Positions 27,647-39,436 of a stretch of 64,000 nucleotides of DNA are shown piece after piece. Under the pieces are notes generated by a model. It did no database searches. It saw only the letters and a list, made by a program, of their open reading frames with translations, and was not told the origin of the DNA. Made by a program: the position numbers and the translations under genes. Source of the DNA: Anaerolineae bacterium (GTDB taxonomy: Bacteria > Chloroflexota > Anaerolineae > UBA7937 > B3-Chlor); NCBI GenBank assembly GCA_034411995.1, contig DAOUME010000022.1:3965-67964 (forward strand), read 5' to 3'. The first letter of the stretch is position 1. Each line of letters begins with the position of its first letter.

Positions 27647-30600
27647 TTGGTGGCTCAAGAGGATCGCCCACAGGCAACCGCCCCGCCGGAGAGCCGTCGG
27701 GAGATCGAGGGTCTCGTCCAGCGCTTCGCCCGCAACCGCGACGTGTACACCCGCCCCGACTACAAAGAGACCCAGGTCCGCGTGGAGTTCATCGACCCCT
27801 TCTTCGAGGCCCTGGGCTGGGACGTGCGCAACGTCAAAGGGTACGCGGAACAGTACAAGGACGTGGTCCACGAGGACGCCATCAAGATCAGCGGGGCCAC
27901 CAAGGCCCCCGACTACTGCTTCCGCGTGGGCGGGGTGAGGAGGTTCTTCCTGGAGGCCAAGAAGCCCTCCACCGCGGTCAAGGGTGAGGTAGGCCCGGCC
28001 TACCAACTGCGCCGCTACGCCTGGAGCGCCAGGCTGCCCCTCAGTCTGCTCACCGACTTCGAGGAGCTCGCCGTCTACGACTGCCGCCAGCGGCCCCGGC
28101 CCACCGACAAGGCTGGCGTGGGCCGGGTGATGTATTACACCTTCGACCAGTACCTGGAGCGCCTGGACGAGATCTACTCCATCTTCGCCCGGGAATCGGT
28201 CCTCAAAGGCTCCTTCGACCGGTACGTGGAGGACACCAAACGCCAGCGCGGCACCAGCGAGGTGGACGTGGAGTTCCTCAAGGAGATCGAGGGCTGGCGC
28301 GACGAGCTGGCCCGCAACCTGGCCCTGAGGAACCCCCAGCTCTCCGTCCACGAGCTGAACTTCGCCGTGCAGCGCACCATCGACCGCATCATCTTCCTGA
28401 GGATGTGCGAGGACCGGGGCATCGAGAGGTATGGCGGCCTGCTGGGCCTGACCGCCGGTCCCCACGTCTACGACCGTCTGGGGGAGCTGTACCGCGAGGC
28501 CGATCAGAAGTACGACTCCGACCTCTTCGACTTCCAGGCGGACAGACTGACCAGGTCCCTCTCCCTCGACGACAAGACCCTCAAGCCCATCCTCTCCGGC
28601 CTGTACTACCCCGACTGCCCCTACGAGTTCTCCGTGCTCCCCCCGGAGATCCTGGGCCAGGTGTACGAGCAGTTCCTGGGCAAGGTCATCCGCCTCACCG
28701 CGGGCCACCGGGCCAAGGTGGAGGAGAAGCCGGAGGTGAAGAAGGCGGGCGGCGTGTACTACACCCCCTCCTACATCGTGGAGTACATCGTCCAGCAAAC
28801 GGTGGGTCGCCTCATCGAAGGCAAGACGCCCCAGCAGATCTCCAAGCTGCACATCCTGGACCCCGCCTGCGGCTCCGGATCGTTCCTGCTGGGCGCTTAC
28901 CAGCACCTGCTGGACTACCACCGGCGCTGGTACGAAGAGCACGACCCGGAGAAGTACGCCACGGCCAAGCGCCCCGCCCTGTACCAGGGCCGCGGGGGCG
29001 AGTGGCGGCTGACCACGGGGGAGAAGAAGCGCATCCTGCTCAACAACATCTACGGCGTGGACATCGACCGCCAGGCGGTGGAGGTGACCAAGCTGAGCCT
29101 GCTGCTCCAGGTGCTGGAGGGAGAGAGCCAGGAGACGTTGGGCCAGCAGTTGAAGCTGTGGCGGGAGAGGGCCCTGCCCGACCTGGGGGAGAACATCAAG
29201 TGTGGCAACTCCTTGATCGGCCCGGACTACTTTGAGGGGCAGTTGCTGCCCGACGAGGAGGAGATGCGCCGGGTGAACCCCTTCGACTGGGAGAAGGAGT
29301 TCCTCCAGATTATGAAGGCGGGCGGCTTTGACGCGGTCATCGGGAACCCGCCCTACATCCGCATCCAGAGGATCGAGCATAGCGTGGCGGACTACCTCTT
29401 CCGCTCCTATCGGGCTCCGACAAGCAAGACCGACCTCTCTCTGGTGTTTCTTGAGCGCGCTCTGGCCCTAGCAACGGACAGCGGACTTGTCGGCTTCATA
29501 TGCACGTCTCAGTGGCTGTCGACAGACTACGGGCGGAACATGCGGGCCATGCTGTCCGATGGGCGACTTCACCAAGTGGTCGACTTCGGCTCCCTGCCAG
29601 TCTTCCAGAAAGCCAATACATACCCTGCGATCCTGATCCTGAGCCCGACCCGATGCGACGCCCTTGCGCTTAAGCGGATCCGGCGAGGTGAACAGCTGAA
29701 CCTGCCGGGCATCCAAGCTACCGATCCGGTCTTGATCGATCTGGATGGACTATCGGACGACCCATGGAACCTTGGGCGTTTGGATATACCAACGCTGCTC
29801 GGCGAGCGCGGGCTCGAATGGAGACCGCTCAGCGCGTACGCGAACGCGTACATCGGAGTCCTGACCGGCATGGACAGGGCCTTCGTCGTCGAGACGAGGG
29901 CTGCCAAGCAACTCCAGTTGGAGACGGACCTGCTCTTGCCGTACGCGTACCGAGGGGCCGAAGTCCAGCGATATGCTCAGGTGGAGCCTGGGGCCCTGGT
30001 GATTTACCCGTACCGTGAAGGGCCAGGGGGCGCGCCGAGGCTCATCCCCGAACCAGAACTGAGGCGGCACTACCCGAATATCCACCAGCATCTCGTGGCT
30101 CACAAGGATGCTCTGCGTGAGCGAAGAGATAGCCGGAGATTCTACGCGAAGGGGCCAGACTGGTATCGTCACCTGCGCGCGGGCTCCTTCGACTACATTC
30201 ATGCCCGCAAGCTCCTCGTCAAGGGTATTGAGACCCGTACGGTCGTAGGCCTGTTGGACGCGGGGACAGCATTCAATGGCGCGAACTGTCCGGGCGTAAT
30301 CGTCGAAGAGCCACAACAACTCTCGCCTCTCTACATCCTGGGGATCCTCAATTCCGGCGTCATGTCGTATCACCTTCGGATGATCTGCCCGGCGAAGCTA
30401 GGCGGCTACACTAGATTCAATGCTCGCGGCATCAACAGTGCACCCATCCGCACCCTCAGTCGCACAGACCGGGCCGAGGAAGCCCGACACGACAAGATGA
30501 TCGCGCTGGTGGAGCGGATGTTGGACCTGCATGAGAAGCTGGCCGCGGCCACCATCCCCGCCGACAAGAAACTCTACCAGCGTCAGATCGAGGCCACAGA

Positions 30601-30679
30601 TGAGGAGATAGACGCGCTGGTGTATGAGTTGTATGGGTTGACCGAGGAGGAGATCGCTATCGTGGAGGGTCGGGCGTGA
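27647..30679 (+). CDS. type IIG restriction-modification enzyme (fused PD-(D/E)xK nuclease, N6-adenine methyltransferase and specificity domain; Eco57I-like)
   Basis: PDYCF...FFLEAKKP nuclease motif, LDPACGSGSFLL motif I, NPPY at 29345-29356, tail LVYELYGLTEEEIAIVEG; 1010 aa; GAGGAGGAAAG RBS. Confidence 0.9.
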   Translation: MVAQEDRPQATAPPESRREIEGLVQRFARNRDVYTRPDYKETQVRVEFIDPFFEALGWDVRNVKGYAEQYKDVVHEDAIKISGATKAPDYCFRVGGVRRFFLEAKKPSTAVKGEVGPAYQLRRYAWSARLPLSLLTDFEELAVYDCRQRPRPTDKAGVGRVMYYTFDQYLERLDEIYSIFARESVLKGSFDRYVEDTKRQRGTSEVDVEFLKEIEGWRDELARNLALRNPQLSVHELNFAVQRTIDRIIFLRMCEDRGIERYGGLLGLTAGPHVYDRLGELYREADQKYDSDLFDFQADRLTRSLSLDDKTLKPILSGLYYPDCPYEFSVLPPEILGQVYEQFLGKVIRLTAGHRAKVEEKPEVKKAGGVYYTPSYIVEYIVQQTVGRLIEGKTPQQISKLHILDPACGSGSFLLGAYQHLLDYHRRWYEEHDPEKYATAKRPALYQGRGGEWRLTTGEKKRILLNNIYGVDIDRQAVEVTKLSLLLQVLEGESQETLGQQLKLWRERALPDLGENIKCGNSLIGPDYFEGQLLPDEEEMRRVNPFDWEKEFLQIMKAGGFDAVIGNPPYIRIQRIEHSVADYLFRSYRAPTSKTDLSLVFLERALALATDSGLVGFICTSQWLSTDYGRNMRAMLSDGRLHQVVDFGSLPVFQKANTYPAILILSPTRCDALALKRIRRGEQLNLPGIQATDPVLIDLDGLSDDPWNLGRLDIPTLLGERGLEWRPLSAYANAYIGVLTGMDRAFVVETRAAKQLQLETDLLLPYAYRGAEVQRYAQVEPGALVIYPYREGPGGAPRLIPEPELRRHYPNIHQHLVAHKDALRERRDSRRFYAKGPDWYRHLRAGSFDYIHARKLLVKGIETRTVVGLLDAGTAFNGANCPGVIVEEPQQLSPLYILGILNSGVMSYHLRMICPAKLGGYTRFNARGINSAPIRTLSRTDRAEEARHDKMIALVERMLDLHEKLAAATIPADKKLYQRQIEATDEEIDALVYELYGLTEEEIAIVEGRA

Positions 30680-30828
30680 GCGGACGGCGCAGCTGGTCGA
30701 GCCGCACATCCGCTGGTAGGCGCGATGGCCCCGAATCTCGCAATCAGGGCAACCCAATGGGCAGCTAGGTTCGACAGCCGGCCGCGGCCGTGCGGATATT
30801 GGCTGGGCCGGGAGCGCGGAGAGTTGGA

Positions 30829-31656
30829 GTGACCGCAGTTGTAGGCGTAAGTTTCCTCTCGGAAGTCATAATGATCGCAGATACTAGGGTGTCCTGGCCA
30901 GGCGCCCCACGGCCACCAGCAGATATGTTGCGGAAGCTGTACCCGGTCTTTTCGCCGCGAACTCCACAAAAGGCAGCTGTGCTGGGTTTCTCCGGCACAA
31001 TATCGGCGGCCAAAACAGTAATGATACACCTCGTGAAGGACAAGCTTCGCAACTACAATCGGCCCCTGATAATGGTCAATCTGAAAGACCATTTGAAGTG
31101 CTGGATAGAAGAAGTGACGGTGACCTGCCTGAGTCCGAGGAGCAGAACCGGCCTCACCTTCATGCTCTGCGGGCTTGAACCCTCCCGCACTGCTGCTGCA
31201 AGAAAGGGAAACGCGCTCGTGAGGTATAGACAGATCTTGGAAACCCACATATACGTCTTCAGTGTGAGCCAGAGCACCGGCAGAGTAGACGTGGTGAAGA
31301 AAGGCCTCTTCGCCGTCATTGGCTCGGGTGCAACACTCGAGCGAGAGCTGAAACGGAAGATTCCGCCAATGATCAGGTTCGGATTCAACCAGCCGAATCT
31401 GCATTGGGCACGAGCTCGCTTGGTGGGCGAAGTAGCGCGAGGAGTTTTTGACAGCGGCGGCGCAACCACAGTTGGCGGACCGTTTCAAGTGTTCCGCATC
31501 ACAGCAGAAGGCTTGGTCACCGAGTACATCTGGCCGGCAAGTATACAACCAAGAGACGTCAGCGTACGACAAGAAGGCCAAAAGACCATAATACAGAATC
31601 GAGACCTCAACCAGACTTACACGCTCCATCCCATATGGGACCTGCCATTGCAGTAG
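30829..31656 (+). CDS. proteasome-beta/HslV-like Ntn (threonine) hydrolase homologue, stand-alone
   Basis: GTG 30829 lies 5 nt after GGAGAG and gives M-TAVVGVSFLSEVIMIADTRVS: Thr1 directly after the initiator, Asp17 in ADTR, Lys35 in RKLYPV, later AVIGSGAT and DSGG...FRITAEG; this order matches the proteasome beta fold. Confidence 0.6.
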   Translation: MTAVVGVSFLSEVIMIADTRVSWPGAPRPPADMLRKLYPVFSPRTPQKAAVLGFSGTISAAKTVMIHLVKDKLRNYNRPLIMVNLKDHLKCWIEEVTVTCLSPRSRTGLTFMLCGLEPSRTAAARKGNALVRYRQILETHIYVFSVSQSTGRVDVVKKGLFAVIGSGATLERELKRKIPPMIRFGFNQPNLHWARARLVGEVARGVFDSGGATTVGGPFQVFRITAEGLVTEYIWPASIQPRDVSVRQEGQKTIIQNRDLNQTYTLHPIWDLPLQ

Positions 31657-31679
31657 TGGGCGAACCAGCAAGTGGCGCC

Positions 31680-31811
31680 GCCACCATCCCCGCTGACAAG
31701 AAGCTCTGCCAGCGCCAGATGGAGGCCACCGATGAGCAAATCGACGCGCTGGTGTACAAATTGTATGGGGTGACGGAGGAAGAGATCGCTATCGCGGAGG
31801 GCCGGGGTTGA
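31680..31811 (+). repeat. remnant copy 2 of the type IIG gene 3' end
   Basis: 132 nt align without gaps to 30548-30679 (19 substitutions by hand count); encodes ATIPADKKLCQRQMEATDEQIDALVYKLYGVTEEEIAIAEGRG-stop with no upstream ORF. Confidence 0.9.
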
Positions 31812-31851
31812 CAGCCAGAAACCCGATGCGGTAGGGACCTAGACGGGCGGC

Positions 31852-33510
31852 TTGCGGCATGACCAGACCGGCCTCCTCTCGCAGAGCGCAAGGCCGGGCA
31901 ATGCAGCGACCGGGGGCATCAGGGGAAATACATTGACAACCATCTCGCAGGGTGAACTGAACAACCTGAGCGTGCTCATCGTGGAAGATGCGCGGCAGGC
32001 TCTGGAGATGCTACTACGGTATCAGCAGAAGTACCGCGACGACATCAATTTCGCCGCGAACAAAGGAGGTTTGCTGATTGACATTGGTAGTCGTCTCGGC
32101 GACACCGGTGTTGTACGGCAGGGCATGGCGTCGATTGATGAGTTGCTGCCGAGGGCTGGTGAGCAATCTCGTCCCCTTCTCCTCTACAATCTAGGCAACG
32201 GGTATATGGCGTTGCACTCCATTGCTCGGCGCCAACCTGGCTTCTCATTCGACCCCGATGACACTAGACTCCGTGAAGCCAAGCGCTGTTACCGCGGCGT
32301 GCTGGGAGGATCAGAGCGTCTTGATGCCAACCAACGCGCTGGACTCCGAGTGAACTATGGCAACTGTCTCGCGAGTCTTGGCCGTTCCCTCGAGGCAATC
32401 CACCAATACGAGACGGCTCTCCGCCACGCGCCCAATCACCCCATGGCATGGGGGAACCTGGGAGTTGAGTTGGAGCGCTTCGCGTTCGTTGGTCAAGACC
32501 CGGCCATCCTGCGGGCTGCGAATGAAGGGCTACTCAGGGCTCTTGCAGATGATAGCCTTGAGCAAATGGGAGAGGATTCGGCGCGCCCCGGTTTCGAAAA
32601 GGCGCAGCAACGTATTGCACGGCTGTTGAGCCAGCTTGTAGAAGACGCGGGACTGGGCGGGCCCGAGGTGCCCCAGGCCGCGACACCGTATCATCAAGCG
32701 TACAGCGAGTTCTGTGTGAAGCATGAACTCTTCCTGAATTTCTGTCTGAAGGGCCGCCCATGCCAGCGGGTGGCTGAAGATGCTGTCAGTTTGTCAATTA
32801 CCACGCCACTTGATGACGAGACGACCTACCCTCGGCTCGCACGAGTGGTCAACGAGATCAAAGAACGATACGCGGTCGCCCGCCTACTGCTGTTCGAAGC
32901 CTGCAATCCGCCTCTTGACACTCAGCCATATGACGAGATGACCTACTACGCGGACAATCTCGACTACGCCGTATACGGGATTGGTCCCACCAAGCTGAAG
33001 CTGGCCTTTGAAAGTGCCTACAACATCTTGGACAAGCTGGCCTTCTTCGTCAACGACTATCTCGATCTGGGGATCAAGGTGCGGCTGGTGAGTTTTCAGG
33101 GGCTATGGAAGGAGCGCAAGACGGCCGCTCTCAGGCCTGCGATTGTCGAACGTGGTAATTGGCACCTGTATGGCCTGTACGACCTCTCCAAAGACCTAGC
33201 ACCGACAGGCTACCTTGAGCACCTGCGGCTCACCCGAGACTATCTAACACACCGCTATCTGGTGCTCCATGTTGAGGGGCTAGATTGGCTAACGTCCGCC
33301 GATGGTCCTGGGTACCACTCGGGCTACCGCCAGTTGCTGACCAACACGATCGAATTGATGCGACTCGTCCGCAGTGCGGTCATCTACCTCATCGCCTTCA
33401 TCGACCGAGAGGAGCGCGCGAAACGCCAAGACGGAGAGGGCTCTATTGCACCCATGCGTGTCCCGCCTTATAGGCCTTACCGGTTGGGTCCGCAGGATGC
33501 TCCAATGTAG
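31852..33510 (+). CDS. TPR-repeat protein with C-terminal HEPN-like (Rx4H) domain, LA2681-like architecture
   Basis: TPR-like helices (NYGNCLASLGRSLEAIHQYETALRHAPNHPMAWGNLG); C-terminal RLTRDYLTHRYLVLH (R-x4-H); start uncertain (TTG 31852 or TTG 31933 after AGGGGAAA). Confidence 0.6.
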   Translation: MRHDQTGLLSQSARPGNAATGGIRGNTLTTISQGELNNLSVLIVEDARQALEMLLRYQQKYRDDINFAANKGGLLIDIGSRLGDTGVVRQGMASIDELLPRAGEQSRPLLLYNLGNGYMALHSIARRQPGFSFDPDDTRLREAKRCYRGVLGGSERLDANQRAGLRVNYGNCLASLGRSLEAIHQYETALRHAPNHPMAWGNLGVELERFAFVGQDPAILRAANEGLLRALADDSLEQMGEDSARPGFEKAQQRIARLLSQLVEDAGLGGPEVPQAATPYHQAYSEFCVKHELFLNFCLKGRPCQRVAEDAVSLSITTPLDDETTYPRLARVVNEIKERYAVARLLLFEACNPPLDTQPYDEMTYYADNLDYAVYGIGPTKLKLAFESAYNILDKLAFFVNDYLDLGIKVRLVSFQGLWKERKTAALRPAIVERGNWHLYGLYDLSKDLAPTGYLEHLRLTRDYLTHRYLVLHVEGLDWLTSADGPGYHSGYRQLLTNTIELMRLVRSAVIYLIAFIDREERAKRQDGEGSIAPMRVPPYRPYRLGPQDAPM

Positions 33511-33544
33511 TCCCCAGGTGCCGCGTGCAGAACTCTAGTTCGGG

Positions 33545-33598
33545 GTGCTAGTGTATGAGTTATATGGGTTGACCGAGGAGGAGATCGCGATTGTCTGA
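33545..33598 (+). repeat. remnant copy 3 of the type IIG gene 3' end
   Basis: GTGCTAGTGTATGAGTTATATGGGTTGACCGAGGAGGAGATCGCGATTGTCTGA = (V)LVYELYGLTEEEIAIV-stop. Confidence 0.85.
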
Positions 33599-33631
33599 AG
33601 GGCTTCCTCAGCGCAGAGAGTAGGCTGTAGC

Positions 33632-34135
33632 ATGATTCAGCCTTGGAGCGACCCCATACCGTACGACCTATCCCGCACGCTGCGTCGGGCAAGTGTCCCG
33701 CCGGGGTTCAGCAGTAGTGTGCCGCAGACTCCGGGTACGTACGTGATCTATTGCACCGCTCAACCAGACCTATGTGAAGCTATCATTGATATCGGAGAAG
33801 CTGGCCCGCGCGCCAAAGCGAGACCAAAGGGCCTCCGAGGGAGGCTGGCAACTACAGTTGCCCACACGGCCTCTGAAAGGATGGCCGCTGACGTACAGGC
33901 CGGCAAACTCCCGAACAGACTCCGTGTAGTTTGGATCGAGAGGCCGTCCAAAGAGGACGCCAAGGAGTTACAGGACGCACTTATCAGCCTCTTCCGAACG
34001 GATTGCGGACGCCAGCCGCGACACAACAAGAGACTGGAGCAGCACCCAAAGCCTGAGGCCTTCCTGGCGATTTGCGCCGCCCTGAAGAGGCACATTGGCG
34101 GCCTATTGCGCCACCCGACGGCCCGCTGCGGGTGA
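33632..34135 (+). CDS. GIY-YIG-like nuclease domain protein
   Basis: PGTYVIY...IIDIGEAG...GLRGRL...H...VVWIERPSKEDAKELQDALISLF...P.HN follows the GIY / YIG / R / H / E / N order of GIY-YIG domains. Confidence 0.45.
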   Translation: MIQPWSDPIPYDLSRTLRRASVPPGFSSSVPQTPGTYVIYCTAQPDLCEAIIDIGEAGPRAKARPKGLRGRLATTVAHTASERMAADVQAGKLPNRLRVVWIERPSKEDAKELQDALISLFRTDCGRQPRHNKRLEQHPKPEAFLAICAALKRHIGGLLRHPTARCG

Positions 34136-34244
34136 CCAGACCGGCGTGCCCCAGGTTGGAGTGAGCGCTGCCCCCCGGCGGGCTCAGCCCGAGGGGGCCG
34201 GGGGCAAATCGTTCGGTGCAACAGCAGAATCAAAGGAGGAGGAG

Positions 34245-34691
34245 ATGTCTGAGTTGCTCACTGCTATCGGCGTCGTATCAGCCGCTAGTGTGTCGATCCT
34301 TAGTGTCTTTGTCCCTTCTTACTACGACAGGCAGCACCGCAAGGAGGAGAAAGCCGACGCCGAACTCCGAAGAATAGACGAGACTACCTTGGGTTTTCTA
34401 GCACAGCTCTCGAACTTCCGGCATTGGGAACCCAGGAGCCTTCAGAAGATCGCGGGGGATCGTGCACTAGAGCATCTCTACACCGACTTGCAGGTAGCGC
34501 AGTATGCTTGGGAGCGCGCCGTTTGGCCAAAACTGGGTGATCAAGACCGCGCCAAGGTCGAGACCATCCGCACAAGGCTTGAAGGGGTCCATACCGCCAA
34601 CGACCTGTCGAGACGCGCAAATGAGTCGGATGTTCCTGCATTGGCAGATCAAATCCTCGCATTGGCTCGTGCCGCAAATGGACGGCCCTAG
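34245..34691 (+). CDS. uncharacterised protein with one N-terminal TM helix
   Basis: ATG 34245 after AAAGGAGGAGGAG; LLTAIGVVSAASVSILSVFV helix, then a helical soluble part. Confidence 0.5.
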   Translation: MSELLTAIGVVSAASVSILSVFVPSYYDRQHRKEEKADAELRRIDETTLGFLAQLSNFRHWEPRSLQKIAGDRALEHLYTDLQVAQYAWERAVWPKLGDQDRAKVETIRTRLEGVHTANDLSRRANESDVPALADQILALARAANGRP

Positions 34692-34770
34692 TCGACCAAG
34701 TGTGTTTGGTTTTGGTGTACAGTGTGCACTGACGCACAGCTGCTTCGGCCCAACAATGGCTTGACCCCAT

Positions 34771-34849
34771 GGGGAGATCGACACGTTGGTGTATCACTTG
34801 TATGGGTTGACGGAGGGAGAGATCGCTATCGTGGAGGGGCGATCGCTGA
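34771..34849 (+). repeat. remnant copy 4 of the type IIG gene 3' end
   Basis: Encodes (G)EIDTLVYHLYGLTEGEIAIVEG; a 1-nt indel lies near the former stop. Confidence 0.85.
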
Positions 34850-35029
34850 ACGCGCTGCGCGGACCGGCTACCCCGAAACAGAGTTCGGTGATCTCTCGGG
34901 GCTCGGATGTGGCATGGTGATGGGGACCAACGTTGGGCCACTGCGCCAGTTGAGGTGACTGGGTGGAAAGATGTCCGCATAATCATTAGTTAGCACGCTT
35001 CACGCCGCTGACGCTCGGGAAGGAAAACC

Positions 35030-36085
35030 ATGAGCAAAGAAATCCTAGTGAGAATGGACATACCAATCCCCGCTCACAAAATCGTCAATACACCTGCCAT
35101 GGTTTTCAGCAGGTGGATGCCTCTGGACGAGGATGAGTCTATTGTAGTCCAAGAGGAAAACGCCACCCTGAGGTTATGGTTCGACAGAAGTTGCTGGCAT
35201 AACGTGACTCACGCGGGAGGAGACATACCTAATCACGTGAATGTTCTCGTAGACAAGGTATTCGCAGATGTAACGCTCCGCGACTTGTCTGAGGGTTTAG
35301 TAGACTACATTGAACTCACAGCCACTGAACCTCACCCTCCAGAGAGCCCCTACCAGCAAGAGTACCGGGAGCTAGGACAGAAAGTGTACCTTCTAACTCT
35401 CACCTACCTGAACAGATTGATTAACTACGCACGAAGCATGAAGGGGCAATACTGGCTACAAGAATACCCCCTTAGCGAAGCTGAGGGCCTGTCTACTGTC
35501 AACCTGGCTTTCAAAGCCCGTGTCCTAATCGACTCTGAATGGGTTAGGTGGTTCCCGGATGTCAGGCAGCTAGTTATCGGCAGGGTGGGAGGCTGTCAAG
35601 ACAGAGAGCGTTTCATAGACAAGGACTCCTGGTCACAGGTCAGGAGCTTCATCACATCAAAGCAACGGGCCTCACTTGTCCGGGAACTCCTCGCCGGGGC
35701 AGAGTGGCTCGCTGGAATTGGGCACCGCAGAAGTGCATTGACAGAAGCAATAACAGCACTTGAAGCCGCAATCACCACATTCTCAAACCAGCCCAAAGCA
35801 GAGGAAGCTTTCGGCTCTCTTATTACGGAGAGAATGAACGTGAGCTCACTGAGCAATTGGACTGAAAAGATGGGTTTGTCGGGCACCATTCACTACCTCT
35901 TCCCACTGGTATTCTCTGAAGAGATGATGCCCACCGACATTCTGACAGATTGTCAGGAGGCGATACTAGAGCGCCAGAATGTGGTGCACAACGCTCAGCG
36001 AGATGTTCAGGAAGATAAGCTGTCAGTGTACCTGGAGGCAATTCGCAATATGTGTCGCCTGCTCGAAACTTACCAGCAAACTTAG
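35030..36085 (+). CDS. uncharacterised protein with C-terminal HEPN-like Rx4H motif
   Basis: Visibly AT-richer than its surroundings; GGAAGGAAAA RBS; C-terminal helical region with ILERQNVVHNAQRD (R-x4-H). Confidence 0.45.
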   Translation: MSKEILVRMDIPIPAHKIVNTPAMVFSRWMPLDEDESIVVQEENATLRLWFDRSCWHNVTHAGGDIPNHVNVLVDKVFADVTLRDLSEGLVDYIELTATEPHPPESPYQQEYRELGQKVYLLTLTYLNRLINYARSMKGQYWLQEYPLSEAEGLSTVNLAFKARVLIDSEWVRWFPDVRQLVIGRVGGCQDRERFIDKDSWSQVRSFITSKQRASLVRELLAGAEWLAGIGHRRSALTEAITALEAAITTFSNQPKAEEAFGSLITERMNVSSLSNWTEKMGLSGTIHYLFPLVFSEEMMPTDILTDCQEAILERQNVVHNAQRDVQEDKLSVYLEAIRNMCRLLETYQQT

Positions 36086-36259
36086 TACCTAGTCACGCAG
36101 TCCATCCCGAGAAGAGCGTGGTAACAGGTCGCTGGCGGCGACAGCCCCTGTCGGTGCCAGGCTGCGTGTGGAGCGACGACTCGGCGATACTCCAGGCTAG
36201 CGGAAGAGCGTCGACGAGAAGACTCAGGCACGCGAAATGACCTATCGCTTCTACGAGAA

Positions 36260-36460
36260 TTGTGCGTGCGACCCAAGAAGGCGAAGATACATTTCTCCAA
36301 TTGCAGGTCCTGCAACTACGGATTAGGAAAAAACAAGCACAAGGTGGAAGGGCTTCACGGGAGATGGCACGGCCCATTCTCGACGTTCGAGGAGGCATGG
36401 GACGCAGCACAACACACCGGCAAGAAGCCGACCACCTGCGGCCACTGCAGACCTCGGTGA
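36260..36460 (+). CDS. small CxxC...CxxC zinc-ribbon protein
   Basis: 66 codons: HFSNCRSC...GRWHGPFSTFEEAWDAA...CGHCRP; no clear RBS; TTG/GTG start. Confidence 0.35.
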   Translation: MCVRPKKAKIHFSNCRSCNYGLGKNKHKVEGLHGRWHGPFSTFEEAWDAAQHTGKKPTTCGHCRPR

Positions 36461-36574
36461 GAGGGGCGGCGCTGCGCCTTGTGCGCTTGCGCGCCGCTGG
36501 TCCAGCTCTACCCAAGCAGACCGCTCTGCCATGGAGGGGTCAATCACCCAGGCACCCAGCGACACCTTCGTAGA

Positions 36575-36593
36575 GGCGGGTCTGAGACCCGCC
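36575..36593. repeat. palindrome GGCGGGTCTGAGACCCGCC (core shared with 42898, 45062 and 46636 elements)
   Basis: Perfect inverted repeat around TCTGAGA. Confidence 0.6.
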
Positions 36594-36734
36594 CGCAAGC
36601 GGCCTCCCGATTCGTCATGGTCGTTCGCACAAACCTCGGCCGGTGCGCCGGTTTGGAGCACCACGCGCGACGCTGTCGGCCAGGCAGCTCGGATCAAAGA
36701 GCTCCATAGTCACGAGTGAGGGACTAGCAACGTC

Positions 36735-37478
36735 ATGAGCATTCGTTTACTCGATTGCGCGCCGATGGCTCCCCGGTACCCACGGTGGCACCTGGGGACT
36801 CCCTGTCTGCTCGTCGACACCGACCAGGGCCTCGTTCTCGTCGATACCGGCCTCGGCCTGCACGACTTTCTGGCCCCAGGGCCCCTGGTCCGCCTCTTCG
36901 CGTGGGCTTTGCGCTTCCCTCACGATCCCGAGCACGCCGCCGTGCGCCAGCTCTCGCGCCTGGGCCACGACCCCGAATCTGTCCGGCACATCGTGATGAC
37001 CCACCTCCATTTCGACCACGCCGGGGGCCTTCCCGACTTCCCCCACGCTCAGGTTCACGTACACCGCCGCGAGTACGAGGCCATGCTCCATCCTCGCAGT
37101 CTGCTAGAGCTGGGCTACGATGGCCTCGATTTCGCCCATGGGCCCTCCTGGGTTCTCTACGACCAACCCACCGAGGACTGGCTCGGGTTCGAGGCTTTCC
37201 GGCTGCCCTTCACGCCGGAGATGTATCTCGTCCCACTCTTCGGCCACACCCGCGGCCATTGCGGGGTAGCCATCCAGGACGATGATGGTTGGGTCTTGCA
37301 GTGTGCCGACGCCCTGCCCACGAATGCTGACTTCGACCTCACCCCGCCATGGCTCAACCGTTTGGTGATCGGACCGCACGTTGCCAGGTTGCGGGAGTGG
37401 GCTTGCCGCCATCCCGAAGTTCGCCTGTTGGCCGGGCACATGCGGCACCCTTTCCCCGATCACAAGGGCGAAGTCTGA
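36735..37478 (+). CDS. MBL-fold metallo-hydrolase
   Basis: HLHFDHAGG metal-binding motif, later H and D ligands. Confidence 0.85.
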   Translation: MSIRLLDCAPMAPRYPRWHLGTPCLLVDTDQGLVLVDTGLGLHDFLAPGPLVRLFAWALRFPHDPEHAAVRQLSRLGHDPESVRHIVMTHLHFDHAGGLPDFPHAQVHVHRREYEAMLHPRSLLELGYDGLDFAHGPSWVLYDQPTEDWLGFEAFRLPFTPEMYLVPLFGHTRGHCGVAIQDDDGWVLQCADALPTNADFDLTPPWLNRLVIGPHVARLREWACRHPEVRLLAGHMRHPFPDHKGEV

Positions 37479-37505
37479 GAGTCCCCGGCCGAAGCGGACC
37501 CGACT

Positions 37506-37544
37506 GGAGAAGAGATCGCTATCGTCGAGGGCCGGAATTGCTGA
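37506..37544 (+). repeat. remnant copy 5 of the type IIG gene 3' end
   Basis: GGAGAAGAGATCGCTATCGTCGAGGGCCGGAATTGCTGA = GEEIAIVEGRNC-stop. Confidence 0.8.
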
Positions 37545-37839
37545 ACCGCTGAGGCCAGCTTCGCAAGGCCAGGCCTGACACCCGCCCCTACCAACCCCCC
37601 AGCCCTGCGTGCGGCGGGCCTTTCTTTGCCCAACACAGACTCGCGAAAGAACCTGAGCTCAGCATACACTTGCGGCAGCTAGCCCTTCTGGCGCCACTGA
37701 GTGCCGCCCGGACACAGCCCATTGGCGAGGACAAACGTGCGCCTGAGGCGCCAGATGGCTTGACGGCGCCGAACGATATCCCCATAATCACTAGTTGGGA
37801 GGACACAACAGGAGGGAATATGAAAGAGCGCGAATCAGT

Positions 37840-38832
37840 ATGGGAAGATTGAGAGTCGGCTTGCTGAACAAGAAACGGGGCAACTTTGCACTCGAAGAAA
37901 GGTTCATAGGCCCCGATGGCGTCGTTGATAGGACGAACGCCGAAGCAGAACATCACCAGCGGGCCCTGACCGAAGCCGGTTACGTTGTCCGCCAGATTCG
38001 CTGGGGCCCTGATTTCATCAACGATCTACAGGCTTCCCCAGTCGATCTTGTGTTCAACGTTTCCAGTCTGGTAGAAGCCGCGATCCTCGAAGAATTGCAG
38101 ATACCCTACGTGGGCTCCGATACGTTCACCATCGCCATCGCCACCGACAAATCGCTGGCGAAAAGGCTCTGGCAGCAGGCGGGCCTGCCGACATCGCCTT
38201 TCTGGCTGGCCAGATCGCAGAAGGACTGTGGCCTGTTTGGGGGCATCCCACCCTTCGAGTATCCCCTGTTCGTCAAGCCGGTGGCCGGCCGAGGCAGCGC
38301 AGGGATCGACGACACGTCCATCGTTCACAGCTACGACCAACTGGTCAGCGCAGTTGTGGAAAGGCTGGAGACTATCGGTCAACCAGTCCTCATAGAGAAG
38401 CTGCTGCGGGGCAGAGAAATCACCCTGGGCGTCCTGGGAAATGAGCGCGCAAGGGCCCTTCCTCCATTAGAGATCGCGTATTGCGAGGGGGATGACACAC
38501 TGACTTTCGAGAAGAAAGAGTTGGACAACGATACCTTCCTCTGCCCTGCTCCGCTGACCGCTGAAGAGACCCACACCATGCAGCAATTGGCGCTTCGGGC
38601 CTACCACGTGTTGGGCTTCAGGGACTTTGGCCGAATTGACACGATCTTGACCGACGAAGGGCCGTGCTTGTTGGAGGGGAACACTTTCGCGGGGCTCATG
38701 TGCACACCCAAGGAGAAACCTCGTAGCTATATTGGCTTCATGGCTCGCGCAGAGGGAAAGGACGGCAAGGCTCTGCTGGATGAGATCATGCAGATAGCTA
38801 TCAGGAGACTCAACTTGAAAGCCTGTGATTGA
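37840..38832 (+). CDS. D-alanine--D-alanine ligase family ATP-grasp enzyme
   Basis: Ddl-like order: LRVGLL..., PYVGSD, KSLAKRLW, FVKPVAGRGSAGI, LIEKLLRGREITLGVLG, GRIDTILT...LEGN; start ATG 37840. Confidence 0.8.
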   Translation: MGRLRVGLLNKKRGNFALEERFIGPDGVVDRTNAEAEHHQRALTEAGYVVRQIRWGPDFINDLQASPVDLVFNVSSLVEAAILEELQIPYVGSDTFTIAIATDKSLAKRLWQQAGLPTSPFWLARSQKDCGLFGGIPPFEYPLFVKPVAGRGSAGIDDTSIVHSYDQLVSAVVERLETIGQPVLIEKLLRGREITLGVLGNERARALPPLEIAYCEGDDTLTFEKKELDNDTFLCPAPLTAEETHTMQQLALRAYHVLGFRDFGRIDTILTDEGPCLLEGNTFAGLMCTPKEKPRSYIGFMARAEGKDGKALLDEIMQIAIRRLNLKACD

Positions 38833-38833
38833 G

Positions 38834-39436
38834 ATGTCAGTACCTCGGATAGAGATAGAACTCGACAAACTGAGCCATAACGCCCGCAAGCTGATAGCTC
38901 TATACGGTTCCAAGCGAATCCACATCGTGGCTGTCACGAAGGGGCTCTGTGGCTCTCCCAGGATTGCGAATCCTCTGCTCAAGAGCGGATTCCGCTGCTT
39001 CGGCGACTCACGCACCCCCAACGTACGAGAGCTGCGCGAGGGTGGCATAGATGCGCAATTCACCTTCATCCGCTCCCCCATGCCCAGCCGGGTCGAGCGA
39101 GTGCTCGAATCTGACGACGTAAGTCTCGATACAAAGATCGCCGTTATGCAGCTTCTTGCCGATGAGGCCACCAGATGTGGCAGAAGCCATCGAGTCAGTC
39201 TGATGGTTGGGCTGGCCTATCTACGGGAGGGCATACTACCCTCCGATCTCGAGCCGGTGGTGAAGGGGATCATTGGCATGCAAGGCATGGATCCACTTGT
39301 CTCCGGCAGGCTGCGGGACGATAATCTGCTGGGCTGGGGTAGTGCCCGCCCGTGGGAGGAAAGGGCAGGCCCAGCGTGCTCATCCGCGTGGATCGGCGGA
39401 AGGGTCGCGCCTGATTCTCTCCCTGAGCAGCGATGA
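38834..39436 (+). pseudogene. truncated amino-acid racemase-like (alanine racemase N-terminal domain) gene
   Basis: HIVAVTKGLCG (PLP-Lys context) and MVGLAYLREGI are present, but the ORF is about 200 aa against roughly 350 expected, and the C-terminal 60 aa look non-homologous. Confidence 0.45.

What the first reader, a model, noticed from the sequence alone, without database searches (positions are those of the whole stretch)
30829..31656. Stand-alone proteasome-beta/HslV-like threonine hydrolase as first cargo gene after the RM enzyme
Seen: GTG 30829 lies 5 nt after GGAGAG and gives M-T-A-V-V-G-V-S-F-L-S-E-V-I-M-I-A-D-T-R. Thr would therefore be residue 1 after Met removal, as in HslV. Asp17 sits in ADTR, Lys35 in RKLYPV, and further on come AVIGSGAT and DSGG...FRITAEG. 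This is the order of catalytic and structural motifs in the proteasome beta fold.

There is no HslU-like ATPase, alpha subunit or Anbu-type partner nearby. The gene is AT-richer than the flanks and is bracketed by two copies of the RM tail.

Inference: this is a divergent Ntn protease acting as an accessory or defence effector. I know of no described defence system built on this fold.
Basis: partly seen in the sequence, partly recalled or inferred. Interest (0 to 1): 0.75.

Follow-up and report, generated by a model that had tools for sequence, protein, structure and literature searches.

The report
Mobile proteasome-like protease gene beside restriction enzyme
This is a real, intact gene for a previously unannotated relative of the proteasome's catalytic subunit, carried as a small foreign cassette in a swappable array of defence-type genes behind a restriction enzyme, so it hints at, but does not prove, a role in phage defence.

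Summary
ORF 30829-31656 (275 aa) belongs to a rare, unannotated family: 39 close homologues and about 250 representatives among 1.84 billion proteins. It has no Pfam, NCBIfam, PHROG or PADLOC hit.

The true SGG equivalent is VGG at 215-217.

Leader, gene and RM-tail copy form a roughly 1.1-kb foreign cassette (GC3 0.62 against 0.85). It lies in an array of tail-delimited cassettes behind a native Type IIG RM gene. A sister genome carries different cargo there, including PADLOC candidate PDC-S18.

Stand-alone proteasome homologues without ATPase partners are already known (Fuchs et al. 2021). A defence role is plausible from context only.

The parts
30829..31656 (+). CDS, 275 aa: proteasome-beta-like N-terminal-threonine hydrolase. 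Thr1 codon 30832-30834; Asp17-equivalent 30880-30882; Lys33-equivalent 30934-30936; Gly47-equivalent 30994-30996; GSG 31321-31329; VGG (SGG-equivalent) 31471-31479.
30818..30823 (+). Shine-Dalgarno-like GGAGAG, 5 nt before the GTG start.
   Evidence: Read directly from the sequence.
30771..30800 (+). Promoter-like site TCGACA-18-GATATT in the cassette leader. Both hexamers are conserved in the 71%-identical relative's locus L023, while the spacer has diverged.
   Evidence: Consensus scan; alignment with L023. This is a consensus match only; function has not been shown.
30733..31811 (+). Inferred cassette unit: leader, gene and trailing long RM-tail copy. This is the stretch shared with L023.
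   Evidence: DNA homology with L023 starts about 100 nt upstream of the start codon and runs into the downstream tail. GC3 is 0.62, against 0.85 for native genes. The cassette is absent from sister genome L033.
27647..30679 (+). Type IIG restriction-modification enzyme, 1010 aa, compositionally native. Its last 136 nt (30544-30679) are tail copy 1.
   Evidence: PADLOC REase_MTase_IIG E 2.5e-226; Pfam Eco57I, N6_Mtase, MmeI_Mtase, TaqI_C and HSDR_N; GC3 0.85.
31676..31811 (+). RM-tail copy 2, 85% identical to the real RM 3' end. It encodes ...ATIPADKKLCQRQMEATDEQIDALVYKLYGVTEEEIAIAEGRG*.
31852..33510 (+). Next cargo gene: TPR plus HEPN_LA2681 protein, 552 aa.
   Evidence: Pfam PF18733 E 4.4e-46 plus TPR hits.
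33531..33603 (+). RM-tail copy 3 (short form).
33632..34135 (+). Cargo gene, 167 aa, of unknown function. It is shared with the sister-genome array (L033 15806-16336; 69% aa and 79.6% nt identity).
34769..34841 (+). RM-tail copy 4. The tail and its downstream about 150 nt resemble the last tail and its flank in L033.
37505..37535 (+). Fifth, very short tail remnant (GAGATCGCTATCGTCGAGGGCCGG), just after the MBL-fold gene.
   Evidence: Pattern scan.

Best explanation
The ORF encodes a member of a rare, unannotated subfamily of the proteasome-beta (MEROPS T1 / Pfam PF00227) superfamily.

Shown:
- The protein has the Ntn alpha-beta-beta-alpha fold of 20S beta subunits.
- The gene starts Met-Thr with no propeptide.
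- Thr1, Asp17, Lys33, the Gly47-type oxyanion glycine and the GSG loop are conserved across the whole family.
- The gene is under purifying selection.

Inferred:
- Methionine aminopeptidase exposes Thr1, which acts as the nucleophile for peptide-bond hydrolysis.
- Arg20 and Ser22 align with the Arg and Ser/Thr of the active beta-subunit ADxRxS/T motif, which by my recollection helps form the substrate-binding strand.
- The protein probably self-assembles and works without an ATPase, as BPH and Anbu appear to do.
- A family-specific C-terminal three-stranded extension (about residues 236-275) may mediate assembly or substrate choice.

Genomically, the gene is the cargo of a roughly 1.1-kb horizontally acquired cassette made of its own promoter-like leader, the gene and a trailing copy of the RM 3' end. 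The cassette sits in an array of such tail-delimited cassettes behind a native Type IIG RM gene. Array content differs between sister genomes and includes defence-type genes.

The most likely biological role is therefore in a conflict or defence context, for example proteolysis of phage or host proteins on infection. I put that at about 40% and it is not demonstrated.
For: Fold:
- The AF2 model has pLDDT 86.9 and pTM 0.87.
- Foldseek gives E 5e-9 and probability 1.0.

Sequence link:
- The family profile hits beta subunits at E 6.7e-8 and HslV at 3.4e-5, in register.
- 19 of 72 members, and the distant roughly 580-aa fusion proteins, hit PF00227.

Active site: T2, D18, K36, G165 and G216 are present in 72 of 72 members. 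R20 is present in 69, G56 in 67 and S166 in 48. The start codon directly precedes Thr in 70 of 72.

Selection: dN/dS is 0.17-0.29.

Cassette:
- Tails bracket the gene in the window and in L023.
- The gene is absent from the orthologous array in L033.
- Its GC3 is foreign.

Defence-type company:
- Type IIG RM.
- TPR-HEPN_LA2681.
- PDC-S18 at E 5e-116 in L033.
- A weak TIR/NDT-like cargo in L023.
- An orthologous RM next to a 41%-identical homologue in L020.
- A ZorD-like SNF2-Mrr protein in L010.
- DUF5677 proteins and integrases in L013.
Against: - No enzymatic, structural or phenotypic data exist.
- The protein itself misses PF00227.
- The equivalents of Asp166 and Ser169 are not conserved; Ser169 is replaced by Val215. 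Ser129 is kept in only 48 of 72 members.
- Oligomerisation could not be modelled.
- The defence association is patchy. In 9 other loci only 1 of 63 neighbours matches PADLOC. Several loci show ordinary or unknown genes, or Y-family polymerase genes.
- The family has no PADLOC model.
- It was not found in viral, phage or plasmid collections.
Confidence: 0.72

Rival explanations
1. Single-gene phage-defence effector. The protease alone senses or responds to infection and degrades phage or host proteins, giving immunity or abortive infection.
For: - The gene is a cassette in arrays that carry TPR-HEPN, PDC-S18 and a TIR/NDT-like gene behind a Type IIG RM.
- A homologue adjoins the same RM family in L020.
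- Another homologue sits beside a ZorD-like SNF2-Mrr protein in L010.
- The gene has its own promoter-like leader.
- It shows presence/absence variation between sister genomes.
Against: - The case is guilt by association only.
- Most lineages lack known defence neighbours.
- No sensor or regulatory domain is evident in a 275-aa protease that appears to be made constitutively.
- I found no precedent in the literature.
Confidence: 0.35
2. Accessory peptidase with no role in conflict. It would be one more of the many partner-less bacterial proteasome homologues, for example clearing unfolded or damaged proteins, that happens to ride in a recombination-prone variable region.
For: - Fuchs et al. 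2021 describe 22 such families with no informative context and suggest ATP-independent clearance functions.
- Many family loci have non-defence or unknown neighbours.
- The array also contains ordinary-looking genes: MBL-fold in the window and ADH in L033.
Against: - The distribution is rare and patchy, with foreign GC3.
- One homologue is disrupted by an IS element and another is split by a frameshift.
- The gene is repeatedly linked to the RM and its tail array.
These features fit a dispensable, selfish or conflict-type gene better than a physiological one.
Confidence: 0.3
3. RM-linked modulator. The protease would control the level of the adjacent fused R-M enzyme, in a way analogous to ClpXP-dependent restriction alleviation of Type I enzymes. 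This would ease establishment or limit self-restriction.
For: Two diverged homologues (41% identical) flank orthologues of the same Type IIG RM (73% identical). One lies downstream (window) and one lies 427 nt upstream (L020). The closest relative also sits among RM-tail copies.
Against: - The 86%-identical RM in sister genome L033 has no such protease.
- About 10 other lineages show no RM nearby.
- The analogy with ClpXP comes from general knowledge and was not tested here.
Confidence: 0.1
4. The protein has the Ntn fold but is not a general protease. It could be a sequence-specific ligase or transpeptidase like connectase, or an amidase acting on a small molecule.
For: - The superfamily includes connectase (PMC7980362).
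- The Asp166 and Ser169 equivalents are lost.
- The C-terminal extension is unique to the family.
Against: - It keeps helices H1 and H2, which connectase lacks according to Fuchs et al..
- It keeps the ADxRxS motif and the Gly47-type glycine, which align with the same positions in active beta subunits.
Confidence: 0.1

Closest known systems
20S proteasome beta subunit (MEROPS T1A, Pfam PF00227)
   Same: - The Thr1/Asp17/Lys33 triad, the ADxRxS strand, the Gly47-type glycine and the GSG loop are all present and in register.
   Different: - There is no propeptide, no alpha subunit and no 20S operon.
- The protein itself scores below PF00227 detection.
- The Asp166 and Ser169 equivalents are not conserved.
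- It has about 80 extra residues, including a C-terminal three-stranded extension.
Partner-less bacterial proteasome homologues (BPH, Anbu, and the 22 families of Fuchs, Alva & Lupas 2021)
   Same: It is a single gene with no AAA+ partner, no propeptide and the catalytic residues retained. The family is rare and patchy in distribution, and its function is unknown.
   Different: - It lacks the Anbu operon partners and the long C-terminal helix of Anbu.
- Unlike those families it has a suggestive context, a defence-type cassette array behind an RM gene.
- I could not test whether it coincides with one of the 22 families, because their sequences are not held here.
HslV (ClpQ)
   Same: - It starts Met-Thr with no propeptide.
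- The profile aligns T2, D18, K36, GFSG and IGSG with HslV Thr1, Asp17, Lys33, GFAG and IGSGG at E 3.4e-5.
   Different: - No hslU is present in the window or in any related locus.
- The protein is 275 aa, against about 175-180 for HslV.
Phage-encoded proteasome homologues (the PPH and AAH families)
   Same: They share the fold (14 BFVD hits at E<=1e-3) and they travel on mobile DNA.
   Different: Identity is only 12-14%. The family was not found in IMG/VR, INPHARED phages or PLSDB plasmids.

Membership tests
Proteasome-beta-like / T1 Ntn hydrolase superfamily | Four-layer alpha-beta-beta-alpha Ntn fold with beta-subunit topology | tested here: met
   [not shown]
Proteasome-beta-like / T1 Ntn hydrolase superfamily | Nucleophilic Thr at the mature N-terminus | tested here: met
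   Thr2 is present in 72 of 72 members. The start codon directly precedes it in 70 of 72. Thr2 aligns with residue 1 of mature HslV and beta-1i chains. Actual removal of Met cannot be tested here.
Proteasome-beta-like / T1 Ntn hydrolase superfamily | Asp17 and Lys33 completing the triad, plus the Gly47 oxyanion glycine | tested here: met
   D18 and K36 are present in 72 of 72 members and G56 in 67 of 72. They are in register with HslV and beta-1.
Proteasome-beta-like / T1 Ntn hydrolase superfamily | Ser129, Asp166 and Ser169 supporting Thr1 | tested here: not met
The Ser129 equivalent (S166) is present in 48 of 72 members. The Ser169 equivalent is Val215 (V or I in 71 of 72). No Asp166 equivalent is conserved.
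Proteasome-beta-like / T1 Ntn hydrolase superfamily | Match to Pfam PF00227 above its gathering score | tested here: not met
   The window protein has no Pfam hit at E<=1. However, 19 of 72 relatives hit at E<=0.01, and 8 of the 10 distant members scanned exceed the cut-off. The link is therefore transitive.
Proteasome-beta-like / T1 Ntn hydrolase superfamily | Assembly into rings; activity only when assembled | not testable with these tools
   Only single-chain prediction is available.
HslV | Adjacent or co-occurring hslU AAA+ gene; subunit of about 175 aa | tested here: not met
   [not shown]
Anbu | Operon with ATP-grasp, alpha-E and transglutaminase genes; long C-terminal helix | tested here: not met
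   No such neighbours were found. A Ddl-type ATP-grasp gene lies 6 kb away at 37795-38832, but it is absent from all related loci. The model's C-terminus is beta strands, not a helix. The operon composition is from general knowledge.
Connectase | Lacks helices H1 and H2; has an insertion between S3 and S4; found in methanogens | tested here: not met
   [not shown]
One of the 22 families of Fuchs et al. 2021 | Sequence clustering with that paper's family alignments | not testable with these tools
   The sequences are on Mendeley and are not held here. The supplement holds none.
Known or candidate anti-phage defence system | Match to a PADLOC model | tested here: not met
   No PADLOC family at E<=1.
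Known or candidate anti-phage defence system | Consistent neighbourhood with defence genes | tested here: inconclusive
   Defence-type context appears in the window, L023, L020, L010 and L013. In 9 other loci, 1 of 63 neighbours hits PADLOC. No background control was run.

The most novel reading that the evidence does not exclude
A propeptide-less, ATPase-independent proteasome-type threonine protease is itself an anti-phage or abortive-infection effector. That would be the first defence function for this fold. It would be distributed as a promoter-bearing cassette that enters arrays anchored on the conserved 3' tail of Type IIG RM genes. Such arrays would be an integron-like platform for defence cargo that needs no integrase and works by recombination between the tail copies.
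Probability: 0.2. Interest if true: 0.8.

Novelty: new member of a known kind. Interest (0 to 1): 0.5.

Why it matters
Bacterial proteasome homologues without partners are numerous, but none outside HslV, the 20S proteasome and connectase has an assigned role. The survey that described them found no informative gene context.

This family offers one. It is a presence/absence-variable cassette in a defence-type array next to an RM enzyme. That yields a direct experiment: express the wild type and a T1A mutant, with and without the RM, and challenge with phage.

The RM-tail-delimited cassette array is a separate lead on how defence islands exchange cargo.

Tried and rejected
Partners and context
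- Conserved partner gene. All-against-all BLAST of neighbours across 17 loci found none. The only recurrences were the RM orthologue in L020, weak alpha/beta-hydrolase similarity and Y-family polymerases in two loci.
- Phage or plasmid origin. No hits in IMG/VR, INPHARED or PLSDB.
- RM relatives in plasmids. Only relatives of 27% identity or less turned up, and no multi-tail records.

Explanations for the tail repeats
- Diversity-generating retroelement. By eye, the differences between tail copies 1 and 2 are of mixed kinds rather than adenine-specific (alignment). None of the cargo or flanking ORFs scanned with Pfam hit a reverse transcriptase.
- attC-like hairpins. The tails fold no better than shuffled sequence, with z from -0.7 to +2.2.
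- Structured RNA in the island. No Rfam match at E<=0.1.
- Tail motif in the literature. Nothing relevant was found.

Gene model
- The 362-aa ORF on the minus strand (30583-31671) is a shadow of the plus-strand gene. Codon-position statistics and the homologues' start and stop positions show this.

Method limits
I give it little weight.
- The AFDB fold library was unavailable.
- The full alignment was too diverse for a locus search, so a 13-sequence subset was used.

Full report
OBSERVATION

The sequence is as described. GGAGAG at 30818-30823 is followed 5 nt later by GTG at 30829. The ORF runs to 31656 (275 aa) and begins MTAVVGVSFLSEVIMIADTR. ADTR, RKLYPV, AVIGSGAT, DSGG and FRITAEG are all present.

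A longer reading from GTG 30790 (288 aa) is not the real start. In a 72-member family alignment the start codon lies directly before the Thr in 70 sequences. The 13 extra residues are also not conserved in the closest relative.

The gene is real.
- It has 39 homologues at E from 5e-126 to 5e-19.
- A profile search of 1.84 billion representatives gives 251 hits at E<=1e-3 and 94 at E<=1e-10. Nearly all align from residue 1.
- dN/dS against two relatives is 0.29 and 0.17, and third-position differences dominate in this frame.
- The 362-aa ORF on the opposite strand is therefore a shadow.
- No Pfam, NCBIfam, PHROG or PADLOC model matches the protein.

WHAT THE PROTEIN IS

An AlphaFold2 model built on the family alignment is confident (pLDDT 86.9, pTM 0.87).

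- Anbu scores 18.3.
- Alpha subunits score 14.8.
- HslV scores 14.3.
- BPH scores 14.2.
- Other Ntn hydrolases score 12 or less.
- Connectase scores 10.4.

Foldseek agrees, with E 5e-9 and probability 1.0.

At the sequence level, a profile of 72 diverse members reaches beta subunits at E 6.7e-8 and HslV at 3.4e-5. The alignments place:
- Thr2 on residue 1 of the mature chains;
- ADTRVS on the ADxRxS/T strand;
- Lys36 on Lys33;
- GFSG on the Gly47 region;
- IGSG on the Ser129 loop.

Nineteen of the 72 members hit PF00227 at E<=0.01. Eight of ten distant family members scanned also hit it, including seven of about 575-590 aa. Homology is therefore transitive even though this protein misses the Pfam model.

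Conservation across the 72 members, which go down to about 18% identity:
- T2, D18, K36, G165 and G216 are present in 72 of 72.
- R20 is present in 69, G56 in 67 and S166 in 48.

Two points depart from canonical beta subunits. The Ser169 position is Val or Ile (V215), and no Asp166 equivalent is conserved. The homologous motif is VGG-PFQ at 215-220, which aligns with ...SGGCIRMASITREG of a beta-1 subunit.

About 80 residues lie outside the shared core. They include a low-confidence loop at 21-33, a hairpin near 119-135 and a C-terminal three-stranded extension at 244-267 with conserved Trp, Tyr and Pro.

I could not measure active-site geometry or model oligomers with the tools available.

CONTEXT IN THE WINDOW

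Upstream is an intact Type IIG RM enzyme at 27647-30679 (PADLOC E 2.5e-226). Its GC3 is native, 0.85, the same as lepA.

The protease gene has GC3 0.62. The genes after it have GC3 0.58-0.67, so they are foreign.

The last 55-136 nt of the RM gene encode ...DALVYELYGLTEEEIAIVEG. This stretch recurs as direct repeats after successive cargo blocks:
- 30544-30679, the real RM 3' end;
- 31676-31811;
- 33531-33603;
- 34769-34841;
- a short remnant near 37505-37535.

The copies share a common 3' boundary at the stop-codon region and differ in their 5' extent. They do not fold as hairpins. No Rfam family matches the island. None of the ORFs scanned with Pfam is an integrase or a reverse transcriptase. 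The next cargo is a TPR plus HEPN_LA2681 protein (E 4.4e-46).

RELATED LOCI

The closest relative (71% identity, L023) is bracketed by tail copies in the same way. DNA homology with the window starts about 100 nt upstream of the start codon. It includes a promoter-like TCGACA-18-GATATT site whose hexamers are conserved, and it continues into the same long form of the downstream tail. The unit is therefore leader plus gene plus tail, about 1.1 kb. Upstream in L023 lies a different cargo with weak similarity to nucleoside deoxyribosyltransferase and TIR families.

A sister genome (GCA_030603665.1, L033) carries the orthologous RM (86% aa, 85% nt identity) followed by at least four further tail copies and different cargo:
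- a MJECL34-family protein;
- a full-length match to PADLOC candidate PDC-S18 (E 5e-116);
- the same 167/176-aa cassette as in the window (79.6% nt identity);
- a 47%-GC gene;
- an ADH gene and a DUF4386 gene.

L033 has no protease gene. The protease is thus a presence/absence-variable cassette in a dynamic array.

A 41%-identical homologue (L020) lies 427 nt upstream of another orthologue of the same RM, which is 73% identical over 295 aa.

Other lineages show:
- a ZorD-like SNF2-Mrr protein and PRiA4_ORF3 proteins (L010);
- two DUF5677 proteins and tyrosine integrases (L013);
- Y-family polymerase or imuA-imuB-dnaE2 genes (L002 and L029);
- a PemK toxin (L027);
- an IS630 insertion that truncates the gene (L024);
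- a split ORF (L021);
- several loci of small unknown genes.

No partner gene is conserved. Of 63 neighbour proteins from nine loci, only the SNF2-Mrr protein matches PADLOC.

The family is very rare in genomes. It has one hit in 185,579 species representatives, a Babeliaceae MAG. It was not found in the viral, phage or plasmid collections.

HOW IT MOST LIKELY WORKS

Shown: beta-subunit fold; Met-Thr start; invariant triad; purifying selection; cassette structure; foreign composition; variable presence.

Inferred:
- Met removal exposes Thr1 as the nucleophile.
- The enzyme hydrolyses peptide bonds.
- It probably self-assembles and needs no ATPase, as proposed for other partner-less homologues.
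- The C-terminal extension may set assembly or substrate choice.
- Cassettes probably move by recombination between tail copies, with excision as a circle and Campbell-type re-entry. This is a hypothesis. It fits the direct orientation, the shared 3' boundary and the lack of a recombinase.

The biological role is not established. The company the gene keeps makes a conflict or defence role the single most likely reading, at roughly 35-40%. A conflict-neutral accessory peptidase is nearly as likely. An RM-modulating role and non-protease Ntn chemistry are minor alternatives.

COMPARISON WITH WHAT IS KNOWN

Fuchs, Alva and Lupas (2021, PMC8665760) described 22 new proteasome-homologue families in prokaryotes and phages. 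All lack propeptides, and none has a co-occurring AAA+ partner or an informative context.

A stand-alone beta-like threonine hydrolase is therefore a known kind. This family is either a further member or possibly one of those 22, which I could not test here.

Three things are new: the absence of any annotation, the cassette packaging, and the recurrent link to a Type IIG RM and its tail array. Full-text searches found no report of a defence system built on this fold.

VERDICT

The fold and chemistry inference is strongly supported. The defence inference is plausible but rests on context only. The novelty claim needs tempering. Interest is moderate at 0.5, mainly as a testable lead on the function of orphan proteasome homologues and because of the unusual RM-tail cassette array it sits in.

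Noticed in passing
window 30544-37535; L033 12898-21475; L023 543-2022: Direct repeats of the last 55-136 nt of the Type IIG RM gene (encoding ...LVYELYGLTEEEIAIVEG) delimit successive cargo blocks. There are five copies in the window, at least five in the sister genome with different cargo, and two in L023. The copies share a 3' boundary and differ in 5' extent. They form no hairpins, and no recombinase was found among the neighbouring ORFs scanned. This looks like a recombination-driven cassette array anchored on a coding tail. I found no description of it in the literature.
   Followed up: partly
window 31852-33510: The second cargo gene encodes TPR repeats plus a LA2681-type HEPN domain (Pfam E 4.4e-46). 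It has no PADLOC model and is absent from sister genome L033.
   Followed up: partly
window 33632-34135 and L033 15806-16336: A 167/176-aa cargo gene of unknown function is the only cassette shared by the two arrays (69% aa and 79.6% nt identity). In both genomes it sits directly after a tail copy. In the window, a 198-aa ORF (34095-34691) overlaps its end.
   Followed up: partly
L033 14510-15433: The sister-genome array carries a full-length match to PADLOC candidate defence gene PDC-S18 (E 5e-116), with weak HSDR_N and NucS-like nuclease similarity.
   Followed up: yes
L020 670-2844: A 41%-identical protease homologue lies 427 nt upstream of an orthologue of the window's RM (73% identical over the first 295 aa). 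This is the opposite side of the RM from the arrangement in the window.
   Followed up: yes
L002 10297-15646; L029 740-1936: Two diverged homologues sit near error-prone polymerase genes. One is near an imuA-like/imuB/dnaE2 cassette and a UDG-like gene. The other is directly downstream of a Y-family polymerase. This may be coincidence or a second recurrent context.
   Followed up: no
P0116, P0123, P0127, P0132, P0133, P0151, P0173 (573-592 aa): Distant family members carry a long C-terminal extension. In six of the seven it matches DUF6941 at E<=0.012, above the Pfam cut-off only in P0116. Their N-terminal halves hit Pfam Proteasome above its cut-off.
   Followed up: partly
L024 807-2817; L021 433-1248: One homologue is N-terminally truncated by an IS630-type (DDE_3) insertion. 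Another is split into two ORFs. The gene is evidently dispensable in some lineages.
   Followed up: no
window 37600-39200: A second low-GC stretch (0.54-0.59) lies just after the fifth tail remnant. It holds a D-Ala-D-Ala-ligase-type ATP-grasp gene (37795-38832) that is absent from L033.
   Followed up: no
L013 1356-5936: In the Babeliaceae MAG contig, the homologue is followed by two DUF5677 proteins and by tyrosine-integrase genes, which suggests an integrative element.
   Followed up: partly
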